A stretch of 64,000 nt of DNA from a virus. The notes under the pieces are model-generated. The model saw only the letters and a program-made list of their open reading frames with translations, was not told the origin of the DNA and made no database searches. Location of the stretch: positions 23,182 to 87,181 of IMG/VR virus record IMGVR_UViG_3300032240_001244; one strand, 5' to 3'. Positions 31,522 to 63,221 of this stretch are shown here, in pieces. The position numbers and the translations under genes are program-made. How positions within the stretch are numbered: position 1 is the first letter of the stretch; each line of letters starts with the position of its first letter.

Positions 31522-32207
31522 GGGCCTAACCGGTATCGATTCGTAATCGGAGGGTAGTACCACACGCAGAGATAAGTACTAGATCTCTTTAAACTCTGTA
31601 CAAAATATAAACGACGAAATGTCTACTATGACCTTCGATGACCTTATGGCCTTCGTTGGTGCCGATGAAGCAACATTTGCTTAGTCCGCCGAGGTGTCTA
31701 CAACCTCGCTTCAAACAAAGTGGAACACAGAGTTTCCCCGATCGACTCTTTAAATAAGGACTGGGGTGGTGGAAAGCTGTCTCCGGACAACCCCTTACTG
31801 ATCAGCTTGCAGATCAAAACTACGGTGCAGATGACGGGGGATCTCCCTCTTGATTGTCAGTACTAAGCGTGTGATATGCTGGTATTATTGTTCATTACGA
31901 AGACGTGGGTTTGTGGAATCGGACCCATCTAGTAGGAATACTAGATTAAAAACTGGATGAATTGCTGGAACTCCTATGACATAGGACAATCAGCAGCCAA
32001 GCCTAAAGTACACTTTAGGAAGGTTCAACGACTAGCGGAGAGATAAAGTTCTCTTAATAACCGCACTAGCGTCCAGCACCCAGATCGGGTGATGATATAG
32101 TCTGATCCTCTTGGTAACAAGAGTTGTAGTTCTTTACGAGGCTGTCTATGAAATCTAAAGTTTCTGGATCTAACAAAAGAATACCAGTGCGAATCCCACT
32201 AGGTCCA
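31522..32207 (+). ncRNA. ssrA: tmRNA interrupted by a group I intron (exon 1 31522-31911, exon 2 32190-32207)
   Basis: Acceptor GGGCCTA/TAGGTCC-A with G3.U wobble; helix 2 TCGTAAT/ATTACGA, GTAGTACCA/TGGTATTAT, CACGC/GCGTG; PK1 AGAGAT/ATCTCT; tag frame 31613-31684; T-arm GTGGG-TT|CGAAT-CCCAC restored on splicing. Confidence 0.92.
31912..32189 (+). mobile_element. group I intron (subgroup IA-like, no ORF) in tmRNA T-loop
   Basis: P1 GTGGGTT/GACCCAT with U.G at 5' splice site; P AATTGCTGGAA, Q AATCAGCAG, R GTTCAACGACTA, S ATGATATAGTCT; P3 CTGGATG/CGTCCAG; P8 CACCC/GGGTG; P9 with GTAA loop; terminal G 32189. Confidence 0.92.
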
Positions 32208-35908: not shown

Positions 35909-36793
35909 ATGGATAATAAAAATAAAATACTACTGGTAGTATCGGCATTAATCATGATTACATTCTTTGTAATAAAATCATTGTCTGTATTTGAATTAAT
36001 AGAATACACTAAACGCGTACAAGTATTCGAGTACCTTTGTTTTATTTTATTCTGCCCGCCGTCATTTATTTTTGTTAAGAATTTTTTAAGAAAAAAAGAC
36101 GGAGAACATCAACGGACGGTTGACCAATTAAGTTATAAAAATACATACTTAGAACACGCTGCTAAGATACTCAGGCACGATATGCACTCAGGAATCAATG
36201 TTTATATGCCAAAGGGTATCTCAGCGATAGAAAGAAAGTTACCCGGGGAAATAATAGAACGCTATAAATTAGAAAATTCTTTAAAATTATTAAAAGAGGG
36301 TTTATTGCATACTCAAAAAGTTTATAGAGGAGTTTATGAGTTTACTAATTTGGTTAAAGAAGGTAGTGGTATTGAATTAAAACCACATAAACTTTCTAAT
36401 ATTTTAATTTCGTATTTGGATTCAACATCATACAAAGAACAAGTTATATTCGATAGTTTTAGTTTACCGACTATTAATGTAAATGAACCTTTGTTTTGTA
36501 CCGCTATAGATAACTTGATTAGAAATGGTTTAAAGTATAATGATAGTGAAACTAAAGTTGTTGCTGTATATATGTTAGATGATAATACTTTAGTTGTTCA
36601 AGATAATGGCCGAGGAATGACAAATGAAGAATTTACCTATATGTCAAAGACAAATACTCGTAAAGAAAATCAAAAAGAAACTGGTTCCGGTTTAGGATTG
36701 GGTATTTGTGTTGCAATTTTGAATGAACATGGATTTAGTGCTAGTTGTGATAAAATTGAAGAAGGAACTCAAATTAAAATTAAAATTAAATAA
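35909..36793 (+). CDS. membrane sensor histidine kinase
   Basis: Two N-terminal TM helices, H-box-like LRHDMHS, N-box DNLIRNGLKY, G1 VQDNGRGM, G2 GSGLGLGI. Confidence 0.88.
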   Translation: MDNKNKILLVVSALIMITFFVIKSLSVFELIEYTKRVQVFEYLCFILFCPPSFIFVKNFLRKKDGEHQRTVDQLSYKNTYLEHAAKILRHDMHSGINVYMPKGISAIERKLPGEIIERYKLENSLKLLKEGLLHTQKVYRGVYEFTNLVKEGSGIELKPHKLSNILISYLDSTSYKEQVIFDSFSLPTINVNEPLFCTAIDNLIRNGLKYNDSETKVVAVYMLDDNTLVVQDNGRGMTNEEFTYMSKTNTRKENQKETGSGLGLGICVAILNEHGFSASCDKIEEGTQIKIKIK

Positions 36794-36799
36794 AAAAAA

Positions 36800-37231
36800 A
36801 TGATAAAATCAATTTTATTAGTAGACGATGAAAGTTTATTTCATCTTGTTTTTGAAGATGCGTGTAGCCTATTAGACATTGCATTACATCTCCATAGTAT
36901 AGACAGCTCGGATAAAGCTGAAAAATTATTTAAAGACTGGAATAAAAATCCAAATACTCGACCAGAGTGTGTTTTTGTTGATTTAAACATAGTCGGCAGC
37001 TCTTATGATGGTATTGAGCTTATTCGTAAGATTAATTTTGAATACGGTAATGGCGTTGTTATAGGAATAATTTCATCAAGTTCGGATAAAATGGAACAGG
37101 CTAAAGCAATACAAGCAGGAGCACAATTTTGGATTGTTAAATCAGATGAAATTGAACCTAGGCTCGAGGAATTTAAAAAAGACTATAGTGCATATCTAAA
37201 TAAAACCGCTTCTTTTAAAGTTTATCAGTAA
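36800..37231 (+). CDS. single-domain response regulator (receiver only)
   Basis: ILLVDD, FVDLN..DGIELI, ISSS, GA..WIVK; no output domain. Confidence 0.88.
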   Translation: MIKSILLVDDESLFHLVFEDACSLLDIALHLHSIDSSDKAEKLFKDWNKNPNTRPECVFVDLNIVGSSYDGIELIRKINFEYGNGVVIGIISSSSDKMEQAKAIQAGAQFWIVKSDEIEPRLEEFKKDYSAYLNKTASFKVYQ

Positions 37232-37244
37232 TAACTTCTAGCTT

Positions 37245-37805
37245 ATGATCAAATTTAATGCCGAATTAAAAAAACAAATAATCGACATTTACAATAAAAA
37301 TGGTATTTTTTTAGAGGGTAATATTCTTAAACTCATAGATGCTGAAAACGATAATCAATTTAAAGATTATCTTGAGAGGGCGATTAATAACGACAAAGAA
37401 ACCAGAAAAAAAAGATTAGATGTTACAAAACAAATTCAATCTCAAAATAAAGAATTGGTTGCAGCGCAGGAAAATAATTCTAAATTAATGGCAGAGCTCA
37501 CTGAAGCTCTACAAAAGGCTGAACGTGCAAAAAAAGACGCAGAAGATGATTTAGACTTATTACAAAAGAAGACCCAAACTGAGTTAATTGGAACAATCGT
37601 TAAAGTTGCTCTTGCTATTGTTATAGGCATAGGCGTTATGACCACTCTGTTATTTGCTACTGCATTTTTTTTAAATAAAGACACTACCTTATTAGGTAAT
37701 GCCTGGTCAAACATGTTTGGAATACTATTAACAAATTCTTTTAGTATTATTGGTACTATTATGGGAGTTAAGTATGCGACTGAAAATGGAAAAACTAAGA
37801 CTTAA
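37245..37805 (+). CDS. coiled-coil protein with two C-terminal TM helices
   Basis: Long heptad region, then two hydrophobic segments. Confidence 0.7.
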   Translation: MIKFNAELKKQIIDIYNKNGIFLEGNILKLIDAENDNQFKDYLERAINNDKETRKKRLDVTKQIQSQNKELVAAQENNSKLMAELTEALQKAERAKKDAEDDLDLLQKKTQTELIGTIVKVALAIVIGIGVMTTLLFATAFFLNKDTTLLGNAWSNMFGILLTNSFSIIGTIMGVKYATENGKTKT

Positions 37806-37813
37806 TAAATTTT

Positions 37814-37934
37814 GACACGCACGGCAACCGAAAGCATACTAGACACTGCTTAGGCAATGCGAGCAATCACGAAGAATACCTCACAGTGCGTAGGTAAGCT
37901 CTAAGTTCTTCTGACCGTGGGGAAAGGCCCATCA
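37814..37934 (+). ncRNA. candidate structured RNA A
   Basis: Stems AAGCA/TGCTT, GAAGAA/TTCTTC, TACCT/AGGTA, possible pseudoknot GAGC/GCTC; ends TGAC-..-TGGG GAAAGG CCCA. Confidence 0.5.
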
Positions 37935-37937
37935 TAT

Positions 37938-38028
37938 AGTCAGGTGGCGGAATGGTATTCGTTACAATGTGGGAAGACCCCTGCAACGTTCTAAAACCAC
38001 ACTACAGGTTCGAATCCTGTCCTGGCTA
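37938..38028 (+). ncRNA. tRNA-like RNA 1 without a canonical anticodon arm
   Basis: Acceptor AGTCAGG/CCTGGCT-A, D-arm GCGGAATGGTATTCGT, T-arm ACAGG-TTCGAAT-CCTGT; 41-nt middle has no 5-bp/7-nt anticodon arm. Confidence 0.72.
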
Positions 38029-38030
38029 CG

Positions 38031-38149
38031 AGGGGAAAGTAACTTAAAGGGAGCCCCAAATGGAGAATCTGTAAAATCTTTCTAGGTTATATACAGTGCG
38101 ACCGCCGGTAAAGATCTCAGCAAGTGACACACGGGGAGAGACCCGACCA
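38031..38149 (+). ncRNA. candidate structured RNA B
   Basis: Stems GGGG/CCCC, TGGAGA/TTTCTA, GGTT/GACC; ends TGAC-..-CGGG GAGAGA CCCG-ACCA. Confidence 0.5.
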
Positions 38150-38228
38150 AGTCAGGTGGGCGTAATGCGGGATGGTTCCCAAGTCCAATAGAATGGTTGC
38201 TTATCCGGTTCGAGTCCGGCCCTGACTA
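38150..38228 (+). ncRNA. tRNA-like RNA 2 without canonical D or anticodon arm
   Basis: Acceptor AGTCAGG/CCTGACT-A, T-arm CCGG-TTCGAGT-CCGG; middle forms small hairpins GGGA/TCCC and CCA/TGG. Confidence 0.7.
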
Positions 38229-38564
38229 CGCTGTTGTTCTTTGACATATAAGGAGAATCAAATTATGGATACATTATCATTCGCTTTAGGGATTGCGACT
38301 GTGGTGGTTATTGCTATTGCAATAGTTGCTGTTTATGCTTTCTTTAAGGTAAGAGAAGTAAAACAAGACAATAGTCTTTTTATTATGGATTTAGATAAAA
38401 GATTTGAAGATTTATATAACCTTCTAGGTAGAAATGAAGAAGCAATAAATCGGAAAATATATGAAGTAGAGCGAGATGTATACTCTGCATTAGACTCAAG
38501 ATTAGATAAACTAGAAAGTAAATTAACAATTAAAAAATAAAAAATAAGTTAAAGAACAACAGCG
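38229..38564. repeat. 17-bp inverted repeat (38229-38245 / 38548-38564) enclosing an ORF; left arm contains boxA-like TGTTCTTTGAC
   Basis: CGCTGTTGTTCTTTGAC pairs with GTTAAAGAACAACAGCG (16 Watson-Crick + 1 G.U). Confidence 0.85.
38265..38540 (+). CDS. membrane-anchored coiled-coil protein
   Basis: AGGAG at 38251-38255, ATG 38265, N-terminal TM helix, coiled-coil tail. Confidence 0.72.
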   Translation: MDTLSFALGIATVVVIAIAIVAVYAFFKVREVKQDNSLFIMDLDKRFEDLYNLLGRNEEAINRKIYEVERDVYSALDSRLDKLESKLTIKK

Positions 38565-38567
38565 CCC

Positions 38568-38641
38568 GGACTTATAGCTCAGTCGGTTAGAGCATCTGAC
38601 TCATAATCAGAGGGTCCCTGGTTCAAGCCCAGGTGAGTCCA
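38568..38641 (+). tRNA. tRNA with CAT anticodon, probably tRNA-Ile2 (lysidine), otherwise elongator Met
   Basis: GGACTTA/TGAGTCC-A acceptor, GCTC/GAGC D-stem, TCTGA-CTCATAA-TCAGA anticodon arm, CCTGG-TTCAAGC-CCAGG T-arm; CCA not encoded. Confidence 0.92.
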
Positions 38642-38671
38642 CTAAAATTTATTAAACATAAAATAAAAACT

Positions 38672-38878
38672 ATGAAAAAACCAATCACCATTCTATTTTT
38701 TTTATTATTGACATTAATTTCCAGTTGTTCAGTATATGTAAAGCCTGCTGTATGGAAACTAAGGCATGGAAATAGGACTACTTATGGATACTGGAGATGC
38801 CCATCTGTAAACCCTTATAGACATCAGTTTAAAATGGTGAGAAAGAAAGCTTTTAAAATAAGACTAATTAAACATTAA
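38672..38878 (+). CDS. small basic lipoprotein-like protein
   Basis: ATG 38672, lipobox LISSC. Confidence 0.55.
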   Translation: MKKPITILFFLLLTLISSCSVYVKPAVWKLRHGNRTTYGYWRCPSVNPYRHQFKMVRKKAFKIRLIKH

Positions 38879-62675: not shown

Positions 62676-63221
62676 TTAAGAAATACGTGCTATAGTTAGC
62701 ATAGGGGTGGTGTCAAAATAAGGCACGACAATATATTTACCTTGATTTGTTTTGATGCTGATATGTCTAATAGGCTTATCTTTATTAATACGAGTCTGTA
62801 TTGTCTCCTTTCTCTTACTAAAAAAACTAGAGATAGTCTTCTCAGCACCTACACCTCTTAAGGCAAAGGTCATAACTATATTCTGTTTAAACTTAATAAC
62901 AGAGTCATACAAAGTCTCTACACACCCACAGTAATCTAAATCATACACAGCATCTTTTCTATCAGGCATCGTGTTGTTGATATCACCAAAACGATACTTA
63001 GATATACTTACATCTTTAATATCTGTAAGTTGCTTCATCATAACTCTAGGATCTTTCTCCCATATCTCATCTACTTGAAACCCATTGTCCTTACACCATG
63101 ATACATATTCATTGATGTCTGGTCCGGCTAGCCCAACTATCTTAGGCTGATTGTAATGAGAGAACACAAAGTCTCTTGCGGCTTTTTTATTCTTAGCCTC
63201 TTTGTAAGATGGTTTTGTCAT
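62676..63221 (-). CDS. hypothetical protein, possibly SAM-methyltransferase-like
   Basis: VGLAGP, WEKD, GDI, YDLDYCG. Confidence 0.5.
   Translation of the reverse strand: MTKPSYKEAKNKKAARDFVFSHYNQPKIVGLAGPDINEYVSWCKDNGFQVDEIWEKDPRVMMKQLTDIKDVSISKYRFGDINNTMPDRKDAVYDLDYCGCVETLYDSVIKFKQNIVMTFALRGVGAEKTISSFFSKRKETIQTRINKDKPIRHISIKTNQGKYIVVPYFDTTPMLTIARIS

What the first reader, a model, noticed from the sequence alone, without database searches (positions are those of the whole stretch)
37814..38228. Repeated two-part RNA unit: structured RNA ending in UGAC-hairpin, followed by a tRNA-like RNA
Seen: each tRNA-like element is preceded by ~120 nt of GC-richer structured sequence. Both contain ACAGTGCG (37883-37890, 38093-38100) followed by GGTAA, and both end in TGAC plus a hairpin with a purine hexaloop (TGGG-GAAAGG-CCCA; CGGG-GAGAGA-CCCG) showing compensatory stem changes. 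The second ends in ACCA, directly abutting the tRNA-like element. Inference: an array of small ncRNAs cut out by tRNA-processing enzymes, possibly an undescribed phage RNA family. This is my best candidate for a new system in the window.
Basis: partly seen in the sequence, partly recalled or inferred. Interest (0 to 1): 0.75.

Follow-up and report, generated by a model that had tools for sequence, protein, structure and literature searches.

The report
Phage small RNAs between tRNA look-alikes
Two different conserved, folded small RNAs each sit just in front of a tRNA-shaped gene in this uncultured phage, a layout long known but unexplained in phages T4 and T5, and one of them carries a self-complementary loop that suggests it works as a pair.

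Summary
The gap 37806-38240 reads A (37813-37937), tRNA-like 1 (37938-38028), B (38029-38149), tRNA-like 2 (38150-38228).

A and B are not two copies of one unit. They are two separate RNA families that share only a portable 3' cassette: UGAC, about 1 nt, a 5-bp stem with a GAAAGA-type loop, then a 3-6 nt tail before the next tRNA(-like) 5' end.
- Family A: 132 instances, 94 unique.
- Family B: 23 instances.
- Both come from uncultured, mostly freshwater, phage DNA, and compensatory changes support their helices.
- Neither matches Rfam, GenBank phages, or the T4/T5 stable RNAs.

The shared ACAGTGCG is partly coincidence. In B, ACAG lies in a covarying stem.

New here: the apical loop of family A holds a perfect central palindrome in 40 of 54 variants, against 5.6 expected. 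Twelve different hexamers occur at that spot. This points to a symmetric kissing dimer, though the window's own copy has only CUAG.

Best reading: these are discrete stable RNAs cut out of a precursor punctuated by tRNA-like genes, by RNase P/Z-type processing. Their cellular function is unknown.

This scan had already found the same families on other DNA.

The parts
37813..37937 (+). Family A RNA (about 125 nt), a pseudoknotted small RNA. It starts 8 nt after the stop codon of ORF 37245-37805.
   Evidence: Model R2 scores 137.1 bits, E 2e-37. 132 relatives, 94 unique. Helices are supported.
37817..37891 (+). Candidate pseudoknot P1: ACGCAC 37817-37822 with GUGCGU 37886-37891. The 3' strand lies in the loop of hairpin P3a (UACCU 37877-37881 with AGGUA 37892-37896).
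   Evidence: Complementary in 89-90 of 90 distinct sequences but never varies. The 3' strand was part of the search anchor, so the pairing is untested.
37824..37860 (+). P2 arm: P2' GCA 37824-37826 with UGC 37858-37860; P2a CCGA 37828-37831 with UUAGG 37850-37854; P2b GCA 37834-37836 with UGC 37847-37849; 10-nt apical loop 37837-37846 holding CUAG at 37839-37842.
   Evidence: P2' 3 of 3 pairs and P2a 4 of 4 pairs show changes on both sides. The loop palindrome is analysed.
37871..37911 (+). P3: GAAGAA 37871-37876 with UUCUUC 37906-37911.
   Evidence: 6 of 6 pairs show changes on both sides in 16 and in 90 distinct sequences.
37912..37937 (+). 3' cassette of A: UGAC 37912-37915, stem 37917-37921 with 37928-37932, loop GAAAGG 37922-37927, tail CAUAU 37933-37937.
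   Evidence: P4 has 4 of 5 pairs with changes on both sides.
37938..38028 (+). tRNA-like element 1: acceptor AGUCAGG 37938-37944 with CCUGGCU 38021-38027, leucine-type D arm, T arm 38004-38020, discriminator A 38028. There is no anticodon arm.
   Evidence: Rfam tRNA 32.1 bits with a 32-nt insert. Not called by ARAGORN. A homologue with a different acceptor stem lies in L376/L384.
38029..38149 (+). Family B RNA (121 nt): Pa 38032-38035 with 38054-38057; Pb 38069-38078 with 38085-38096; candidate pseudoknots ACUU 38042-38045 with AAGU 38122-38125, and GGGA 38049-38052 with UCUC 38115-38118.
   Evidence: Model R1 scores 151.5 bits. Pairs with changes on both sides: Pa 3 of 4, Pb 8 of 10, each pseudoknot helix 1 of 4.
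38125..38149 (+). 3' cassette of B: UGAC 38125-38128, stem CGGG 38132-38135 with CCCG 38142-38145, loop GAGAGA 38136-38141, tail ACCA 38146-38149.
   Evidence: Conserved in all 20 distinct B sequences. The closing pair changes C-G to U-A in 4 of them. ACCA is present in 16 of the 20 distinct sequences; the others end GCCA, AACA (2) or UACA.
38150..38228 (+). tRNA-like element 2: acceptor AGUCAGG 38150-38156 with CCUGACU 38221-38227, T arm 38204-38220, discriminator A 38228. The interior is a recurrent insert type.
   Evidence: No call by ARAGORN or Rfam. By eye, about 12 of the 17 frames listed carry the same insert type.
38229..38564 (+). Long-range stem (arms about 38229-38245 and 38548-38564) enclosing the small membrane-protein ORF 38266-38540. 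It joins the 3' end of tl2 to the 5' side of tRNA-Met (38568-38642).
   Evidence: Inverted repeat of 21 nt, 90% complementary (I2). A 17-bp stem appears in both the MFE and the centroid fold; whole-region z -3.17. tRNA-Met is.

Best explanation
The gap is a small RNA island, probably made as one precursor: A, tl1, B, tl2, then a stem-enclosed small ORF and tRNA-Met.

Inferred processing:
- The two tRNA-shaped genes serve as cutting handles.
- An RNase P-type cut at each acceptor +1, and an RNase Z-type cut after each discriminator base, would release four discrete RNAs.
- A and B are two unrelated, independently conserved, pseudoknotted RNAs of about 120 nt.

The shared cassette. Each of A and B ends in the same portable element: UGAC, about 1 nt, a 5-bp stem, a GAAAGA-type loop and a 3-6 nt tail. 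I read it as a module that forms and protects the 3' end. It lies just before the RNase P site, and in other phages the same hairpin is followed by a U run, like an intrinsic terminator. Its conserved loop and conserved UGAC suggest that some factor also recognises it.

Family A probably acts as a symmetric dimer joined by its self-complementary P2 loop.

Shown: conservation, folds, spacing, modularity and palindrome switching. Inferred: transcription, the cutting enzymes, dimer formation and stability. Unknown: the cellular target. My guess is that these RNAs bind and hold a host or phage factor.
For: Families and folds:
- Family A: the anchor motif was found in 33 viral stretches with a stricter pattern, 102 metagenome stretches and 5 MAG contigs.
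- That gave 132 usable instances and 94 unique cores, after 9 at contig edges were dropped. All 132 carry ACGCAC upstream.
- On 90 distinct sequences, 94.6% of cells pair against 83.3% in shuffles. P2' (3 of 3), P2a (4 of 4) and P3 (6 of 6) show changes on both sides. P4 shows them in 4 of 5 pairs on 16 sequences.
- Family B: 23 matches at 78-160 bits. 95.9% of cells pair against 81.5%. Pa 3 of 4 and Pb 8 of 10.

Ends:
- B is flanked on both sides by a T arm plus acceptor and a tRNA(-like) 5' end, with no spacer, in 23 of 23 instances.
- Family A is followed by a tRNA (30) or a tRNA-like gene (25) in 55 of 99 contexts. The start sits at offset 38-40 after the anchor in most of these 55 (25-59 in a minority, mostly copies without the UGAC hairpin). 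A U run follows in 28.

Cassette:
- 119 hits against 2-6 in shuffles. It is also attached to 28 other, unrelated upstream sequences.
- 56 of 105 evaluable unique cassettes (113 in all, 8 too near a contig end) are followed at a gap of 4-7 nt by an element framed by an acceptor and T arm, under a strict detector that misses some.
- Of the 94 cassettes with a clear context, the loop is GAAAGA in 52, the spacer is 1 nt in 70 and the stem is 5 bp in 70.

Palindrome:
- 40 of 54 distinct P2 variants hold a central perfect palindrome of 6 nt or more, against 5.6 +/- 2.2 (maximum 14) in 1000 shuffles.
- Twelve different hexamers occur at the same place.
- The same argument supports symmetric kissing loops in OLE and GOLLD (passages of PMC12286853).

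Precedent: T4 and T5 annotate stable RNAs in the same layout.
Against: - No expression or end-mapping data exist.
- Each RNA folded alone is no better than shuffles.
- P1 and P3a never vary. Part of that invariance comes from how the sequences were collected, so the family A pseudoknot is unproven.
- The pseudoknot of B rests on one clade of three sequences.
- The window's own family A copy has only a 4-nt palindrome (CUAG, in ACUAGA), as do 23 of the 94 unique cores. Four G+C-rich members have none.
- Family A has no tRNA upstream in 83 of 93 evaluable contexts, and none downstream in 44 of 99. It does not depend on tRNA handles.
- The conserved UGAC and loop sequence are not explained by a mere protective hairpin.
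- No relative was found in any cultured phage, so nothing here is tied to an experiment.
Confidence: 0.62

Rival explanations
1. A and B are not RNAs with a role of their own. They are cis-acting leaders or spacers of the tRNA(-like) operon. They might be processive antitermination elements (put-like or nut/boxB-like) or folding and processing aids for the gene that follows.
For: - Family A is usually first in its operon: no tRNA lies upstream in 83 of 93 evaluable contexts.
- The cassette is a short G+C stem with a purine-rich loop close to a conserved single-stranded word. From recall, that shape resembles boxB with boxA.
- The cassette sits at a fixed 3-6 nt from the next gene.
Against: - In 28 of 99 contexts the same family A hairpin is followed by a U run and no tRNA. 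That is the layout of a stand-alone RNA gene.
- B is an internal spacer in 23 of 23 cases, yet its whole 121 nt are conserved at 93% mean column identity in the 11-sequence seed alignment.
- A palindromic loop that switches among 12 hexamers has no role in a cis leader.
- No N-like or put-like partner was sought or found.
Confidence: 0.15
2. Family A is a ligand- or factor-sensing regulatory element, a riboswitch-like aptamer. Its P4 hairpin would be the expression platform for the gene or RNA that follows.
For: - Junction nucleotides are very highly conserved: an invariant 22-mer, GCAAUGCGAAC and UCAAG.
- The core has a candidate pseudoknot (P1), complementary but untested.
- P4 plus a U run lies directly upstream of an ORF start in one lineage (listing).
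Against: - P4 does not compete with any aptamer helix in the supported fold.
- P4 is kept unchanged when no U run follows, and it also occurs behind unrelated RNAs.
- The downstream partner is a tRNA, a tRNA-like gene, an ORF or nothing, so there is no common regulated gene.
- No Rfam riboswitch matches at E up to 10.
Confidence: 0.07
3. A or B is a self-cleaving ribozyme that trims the neighbouring tRNA-like RNA. From recall, HDV-like theta ribozymes do this behind phage tRNAs.
For: - Both lie directly against tRNA(-like) ends.
- Both have pseudoknot potential and highly conserved unpaired nucleotides.
Against: - No match to any ribozyme family of Rfam at E up to 10.
- The strand order of A (P1, P2, P3, P3a) is not that of the HDV double pseudoknot.
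- Family A mostly has no upstream tRNA to release.
- The neighbours keep full acceptor stems that RNase P/Z could cut without help.
Confidence: 0.05
4. The conserved words are DNA signals, not RNA. TTGACA(17)CATACT at 37812-37840 and CTGACC(18)TATAGT at 37911-37940 would be sigma-70-type promoters, and the hairpins would be terminators.
For: The promoter scan lists both sites at 10 of 12 and 9 of 12 matches.
Against: - Promoter-like sites are no more frequent than in shuffles: 5 found against 4.8 expected.
- Transcription from them would start inside P2, or inside the acceptor stem of tl1.
- Compensatory changes in P2', P2a, P3 and P4 show selection on RNA pairing across these stretches.
- The -10-like word is not kept when a different tRNA follows (listing).
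Confidence: 0.03

Closest known systems
Phage T4 rnaD (species 2, 119 nt) followed by rnaC (species 1, 139 nt) behind tRNA-Arg
   Same: - A structured RNA of about 120 nt abuts a tRNA and is followed by an RNA whose 3' part is a T arm plus acceptor strand (annotation; sequence read).
- rnaD also ends in CCA.
- Both are made in infection and their roles are unknown (passages of PMC3014915 and PMC9697503).
   Different: - No sequence or model similarity. R1 and R2 give only chance-level matches in the T4 stretch (E 0.36 and above), none on rnaC or rnaD.
- There is no UGAC-hairpin cassette and no AGUCAGG frame.
Phage T5 RNA1 / RNAI / RNAIII / tRNA-His, and RNA2 / RNAIV
   Same: - The record annotates 'tRNA-like stable RNA with unknown functions' directly followed by stable RNAs of about 105 nt and then a tRNA.
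- RNA1 carries a leucine-type D arm, like the frames here (read).
   Different: - The order is tRNA-like first.
- No match of R1 or R2 on these RNAs.
- No shared 3' cassette was seen.
ROOL, GOLLD and OLE RNAs
   Same: - ROOL and GOLLD are phage or prophage RNAs 'often near tRNA islands' with unknown function.
- They form RNA-only homo-oligomers held by kissing loops.
- Symmetric loops are supported by switching between palindromes (passages of PMC12286853). Family A shows the same signature.
   Different: - Those RNAs are several-fold larger (GOLLD often above 800 nt per the paper) and form cages or long dimers.
- Family A is about 125 nt with one palindromic loop.
- No Rfam match to them.
Class II tRNA-Leu (Rfam RF00005), for the two tRNA-like elements
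   Same: Both have a 7-bp acceptor stem, a discriminator A and a canonical T arm. tl1 also has a leucine-type D arm.
   Different: - There is no anticodon arm.
- ARAGORN calls neither element.
- It calls only 50 of 177 unique frames of this type in the fetched loci.
tRNA-punctuated small-RNA precursors: murine gammaherpesvirus 68 tRNA-miRNA RNAs and engineered tRNA-guide-RNA arrays (recalled, not checked here)
   Same: The principle is the same: tRNA-shaped units recruit RNase P/Z to cut neighbouring small RNAs out of one transcript.
   Different: Those are eukaryotic or synthetic systems. Processing is not shown for this phage.
HIV-1 dimerisation initiation site (recalled, not checked here)
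   Same: A hairpin loop with a 6-nt palindrome whose identity differs between lineages but stays self-complementary. It drives a kissing dimer.
   Different: It is part of a viral genome, not a small RNA. There is no relation in sequence or context.

Membership tests
tRNA (Rfam RF00005 / ARAGORN) | Full cloverleaf with an anticodon arm, found by standard tRNA finders. | tested here: not met
   ARAGORN finds only tRNA-Met at 38568-38642. At gathering filters Rfam finds only that tRNA. With lax filters tl1 scores 32.1 bits, with 32 nt in place of the anticodon arm, and tl2 gives nothing.
tRNA (Rfam RF00005 / ARAGORN) | A 7-bp acceptor stem stacked on a 5-bp T stem with a UUCGANU loop, and a discriminator base. 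| tested here: met
   Read directly. tl1: 37938-37944 with 38021-27, T arm 38004-38020. tl2: 38150-56 with 38221-27, T arm 38204-38220 (with one U-C mismatch).
T4 rnaC/rnaD and T5 stable RNAs of tRNA clusters | Non-tRNA RNA genes lying end to end with tRNA genes in a phage tRNA cluster. | tested here: met
   A, tl1, B and tl2 abut without spacers. The same layout is annotated in T4 and T5.
T4 rnaC/rnaD and T5 stable RNAs of tRNA clusters | Sequence or structure homology to those RNAs. | tested here: not met
   Models R1 and R2, with filters off, over the T4 and T5 tRNA regions give a best E of 0.36 to 2.6. None falls on an annotated stable RNA.
T4 rnaC/rnaD and T5 stable RNAs of tRNA clusters | Accumulation as stable processed RNAs in infected cells. 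| not testable with these tools
   No run on record as RNA holds this DNA.
ROOL / GOLLD / OLE (homo-oligomeric ornate RNAs) | Match to the Rfam models. | tested here: not met
   No hit at gathering score over the window, nor at E up to 10 over 37600-38700.
ROOL / GOLLD / OLE (homo-oligomeric ornate RNAs) | A symmetric intermolecular kissing loop, shown by switching between palindromes. | tested here: met
   Met for family A as a whole: 40 of 54 P2 variants, 12 hexamers, shuffles 5.6 +/- 2.2. The window's own copy has only CUAG.
Self-cleaving ribozymes (HDV-like, hammerhead, twister, pistol, hatchet) | Match to a family model or its conserved core. | tested here: not met
   No such family appears among the 7 matches at E up to 10.
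Intrinsic terminator | A G+C-rich hairpin directly followed by a U run. | tested here: not met
   In the window the two cassette hairpins are followed by CAUAU and ACCA. The scan lists no terminator there. In other phages 17 of 126 cassettes do have a U run.

The most novel reading that the evidence does not exclude
Phage tRNA islands may encode a modular kit.
- tRNA-Leu-shaped frames act as cutting handles, and possibly as chargeable handles.
- A portable UGAC-hairpin cassette sets 3' ends and may recruit a factor.
- A library of interchangeable cargo RNAs rides on these parts.

Family A would be a miniature relative in behaviour of ROOL and GOLLD: a 125-nt pseudoknotted RNA that self-assembles through a palindromic kissing loop into a symmetric RNA-only dimer. 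That would make RNA quaternary structure a common theme of phage tRNA islands, and a tractable small model for it.
Probability: 0.3. Interest if true: 0.75.

Novelty: new variant of a known kind. Interest (0 to 1): 0.55.

Why it matters
Stable RNAs of unknown role have sat in the tRNA clusters of T4 and T5 for fifty years. This window shows that the same kind of island is widespread in uncultured freshwater-type phages and is built from reusable parts.

It also gives three concrete handles for experiments:
- two well-defined 120-nt folds;
- a 26-nt cassette with a conserved loop that should have a binding partner;
- a loop whose palindrome switches, which predicts a dimer that simple gel assays and compensatory mutants can test.

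If the dimer is real, family A would be a very small natural RNA-only assembly from the same genomic niche as ROOL and GOLLD.

Tried and rejected
- **Synteny.** I fetched 80 relatives of the upstream ORF 37245-37805. None holds the island next to that gene: blastn found no hit, the T-arm word occurs in 1 of 80, and ARAGORN made 1 odd call in the 37 of the 80 loci I gave it. The island is therefore an insertion in this lineage, and synteny could not supply homologues.
- **First pattern scan.** Of 20 regex matches, 2 were real.
- **Single-sequence folds.** Not better than shuffles.
- **GenBank phages.** No match for the whole gap or for B. For A there were only chance matches (E 0.1 or worse, at most 38% of the query, mostly inside annotated protein genes such as terminase and tape-measure; some records carry no annotation).
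- **T4 and T5.** No homology by models R1 and R2.
- **A-B hetero-kissing.** CUAGA in the A loop could pair with UCUAG in the B loop. I rejected this because, in phages that hold both, the A palindrome changes (GUGCAC, ACCGGU) while the B loop does not follow.
- **UGAC pairing with GUCA of the AGUCAGG acceptor.** Rejected as the general reason for UGAC. It is kept before tRNAs with other acceptors, before U runs and before family A.
- **A palindrome in tl1 (AACGUU).** Not kept in the homologue in L376/L384.
- **ACCA as a functional CCA end of B.** It is replaced by AACA or UACA in the three divergent members and by GCCA in one other, so it is probably not essential.
- **RNA runs.** No RNA holder is listed.
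- **Enzyme genes.** PolyA_pol, RtcB, TROVE and T4 RNA ligase 1 families are not found in the 87-kb record. The record is about half a genome, and the ligase search rang in no control genome either. This is uninformative.
- **Papers.**
  - Searches found no description of these two families.
  - I read passages only of PMC3014915, PMC9697503, PMC12286853 and PMC10690425.
Families A or B may be among them, so I cannot claim they are absent from print.
Full report
**What is there**

The window is part of an 87-kb IMG/VR virus record of about 30% G+C, estimated half complete. Between the stop codon of ORF 37245-37805 and the small ORF 38266-38540 lies a 435-nt gap of 45-56% G+C. ARAGORN finds one tRNA in the whole window, tRNA-Met at 38568-38642. 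Rfam at gathering score finds that tRNA and a group I intron elsewhere.

With lax filters the tRNA model reaches 37938-38028 at 32.1 bits, aligning the acceptor, D and T arms and skipping 32 nt where the anticodon arm should be. No other family reaches E 10 in a meaningful way. The gap reads A (37813-37937), tl1 (37938-38028), B (38029-38149), tl2 (38150-38228).

**The island is an insertion**

I fetched 80 relatives of the upstream protein from viral contigs. None has the RNAs next to that gene. Homologues therefore had to be found by DNA patterns.

**The tRNA-like frames**

They are 73-191 nt long, with up to 8 per locus. ARAGORN accepts only 50 of the 177 as tRNAs.

The interior of tl2 is a recurrent insert type: by eye, about 12 of the 17 frames listed carry it. 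The interior of tl1 recurs in L376/L384 inside a different acceptor stem. This agrees with earlier notes of this scan that such frames carry exchangeable inserts.

**Family A**

L091, L155, L201 and L236 showed that the 125 nt in front of tl1 are conserved.
- A strict pattern found 33 viral stretches.
- The invariant 22-mer anchor found 102 metagenome stretches, mostly from lake samples by their record names, and 5 small MAG contigs.
- After 9 copies at contig edges were dropped, 132 instances gave 94 unique cores. All have ACGCAC upstream.

On a 16-sequence alignment, P3 (6 of 6 pairs) and P4 (4 of 5) show changes on both sides. On 90 distinct sequences:
- P2' (3 of 3), P2a (4 of 4) and P3 (6 of 6) covary;
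- 94.6% of cells pair against 83.3% in shuffles;
- at most 41.6% pair when the partners are slid.

P1 (ACGCAC with GUGCGU, which would make a pseudoknot with P3) and P3a never vary. Part of that invariance comes from selecting on the anchor, so these two helices are plausible but untested.

**The palindromic loop**

The apical loop of P2 holds a perfect palindrome of 6 nt or more in 41 of 54 distinct P2 variants (shuffles 17.2 +/- 3.3). If the palindrome must lie within 3 nt of the middle, the count is 40 of 54, against 5.6 +/- 2.2 (maximum 14 in 1000 shuffles). Twelve different hexamers occur at that one spot.

Adjacent bases of one loop cannot pair with each other, so switching between palindromes points to pairing between two molecules. 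The cryo-EM study of OLE, ROOL and GOLLD used the same argument for symmetric kissing loops (passages of PMC12286853). The window's copy belongs to the 23 of 94 cores that read ACUAGA, with only CUAG self-complementary. Four G+C-rich members have no palindrome. The inference is strong for the family and weaker for this copy.

**Family B**

A pattern found 10 viral stretches. A covariance model built from 11 sequences found 23 members at 78-160 bits among the loci searched. It found none in a first set of 100 loci and 11 in a second set.

Pa (3 of 4 pairs) and Pb (8 of 10) covary. The two helices that would tie the Pa loop to the 3' segment each have one compensatory pair, in one clade of three sequences.

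The 8-mer identity between A and B is therefore partly chance.

B is flanked by a T arm plus acceptor on its 5' side, and by a tRNA or tRNA-like 5' end on its 3' side, in 23 of 23 instances. By eye these are sixteen tRNA-Leu-type genes, two tRNA-Trp-type genes and five tRNA-like frames.

The ACCA end is present in 16 of the 20 distinct sequences, but it reads AACA or UACA in the three divergent members and GCCA in one other. I do not treat it as essential.

**The shared cassette**

- UGAC, a 1-3 nt spacer, a 4-bp core stem and a GAAAGA-like loop occur 119 times in 3.5 Mb of loci, against 2-6 in shuffles. In 28 unique cases the cassette is attached to upstream sequences that are neither A nor B.
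- A strict detector of acceptor-plus-T-arm frames finds such a frame 4-7 nt after the core stem for 56 of 105 evaluable unique cassettes (113 in all, 8 too near a contig end). It visibly misses others.
- With a looser pattern and a hand-made list of acceptor starts, 75 of 126 unique cassettes are followed after 3-6 nt by a tRNA(-like) 5' end, 17 by a U run, 2 by the 5' end of family A, and 32 by something else, including chance matches.
- Among the 94 cassettes with a clear context, the loop is GAAAGA in 52, the spacer is 1 nt in 70 and the stem is 5 bp in 70.
- Family A contexts agree. Of 99 evaluable, 30 are followed by a tRNA (four of them AGUCAGG frames that ARAGORN accepts), 25 by a tRNA-like frame, 28 by a U run and 16 by something else. 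Only 10 of 93 have a tRNA(-like) gene upstream.

**How it most likely works**

The geometry fits a precursor in which tRNA-shaped units are cut by RNase P at +1 and by an RNase Z-type activity after the discriminator base. No CCA is encoded. This would release A and B as discrete RNAs that end in a hairpin with a short tail.

The same hairpin with a U run would end transcription in phages where no tRNA follows. This explains the position and the covarying stem of the cassette. It does not explain the conserved UGAC or the conserved loop, which suggest recognition by a protein or an RNA.

I rejected a promoter reading of TTGACA and CTGACC. Such sites are no more common than in shuffles, and the stretches between them show RNA covariation.

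What A and B do after release is unknown. I favour factor-binding RNAs, with A acting as a dimer.

**Comparison with known systems**

T4 annotates tRNA-Arg, rnaD and rnaC end to end, and rnaC ends in a T arm and acceptor strand. T5 annotates RNA1 and RNA2 as tRNA-like stable RNAs next to RNAI, RNAIII and RNAIV. A T4 review and a T4 omics paper both say the roles of RNAC and RNAD are unknown (passages).

The window is therefore a new sequence variant of a known but unexplained kind. Models R1 and R2 find nothing in the T4 or T5 regions, and blastn finds nothing credible in 50,697 phage records.

A 2023 survey predicted 8,495 unnamed structured RNAs from IMG/VR. Its lists are in supplements I could not open, so these families may already be listed there without a description (passages of PMC10690425).

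**Relation to earlier notes of this scan**

Look-ups by sequence showed that other agents had met the same frames, the same 3' hairpin and related spacer RNAs in other genomes. They also named T4 and T5 as the closest known systems. I re-tested those points here.

What I add:
- the separation of A and B into two families with their folds;
- the finding that the shared 8-mer is partly chance;
- the quantified modular cassette;
- the palindrome switching in family A.

**Limits**

- There are no expression data.
- P1 and P3a are untested.
- The detectors for downstream genes are home-made.
- Many sequences are related by descent, so shuffle controls overstate independence.
- The window's own family A loop is the weak palindrome variant.

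Noticed in passing
window 38229-38245 with 38548-38564, around ORF 38266-38540: A 17-bp long-range stem starts right after tl2 and ends 3 nt before tRNA-Met. It encloses a 91-aa single-pass membrane-protein ORF. It appears in both the MFE and the centroid fold (whole-region z -3.17). It looks like an RNase III-type stalk that would cut an mRNA out of the RNA operon.
   Followed up: partly
window 31901-32124: A group I intron is called by Rfam at 96.3 bits. Its host gene was not examined.
   Followed up: no
window 35909-37231: The phage encodes a histidine-kinase-like ATPase protein (HATPase_c, E 2.7e-12) and a stand-alone response-regulator receiver domain (E 3.6e-09) just upstream of the RNA island. 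This is unusual cargo for a phage.
   Followed up: partly
L321, L324, L333, L362, L390 (family A copies without P4): In one subfamily the P4 hairpin is missing. Instead, the 3' UGAC and the bases after it pair with the 5' flank (GACCGUCA with UGACGGUC), with compensatory changes between loci. A long closing stem therefore joins the two ends of the RNA.
   Followed up: partly
L323, L344, L355, L356, L363, L367, L398, L431, L445, L447, L448: In one lineage family A ends in P4 plus a U run. About 20 nt later comes the start of a conserved ORF (ATGGCAAAC...). The ORF was not identified.
   Followed up: no
L091 (minus strand 1447-1377) and L146 (after family B): The same short insert (GGUUGCGAUAGUUUCCGUU) occurs in 71-nt tRNA-like frames with two different acceptor stems. 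This is another case of an insert moving between frames.
   Followed up: no
L354, L373, L428 (divergent family B): The Pb apical loop reads UCUAGA, a 6-nt palindrome, where most B copies read UCUAGG. One subgroup (L375, L403, L453) has no palindrome. Variants are too few to test dimerisation of B.
   Followed up: partly
window 63047-63116 (minus strand): Model R2 gives a weak partial match (8.4 bits, E 0.9). It includes a GGGAGAAAGAUCC hairpin like the cassette. It is probably chance.
   Followed up: no
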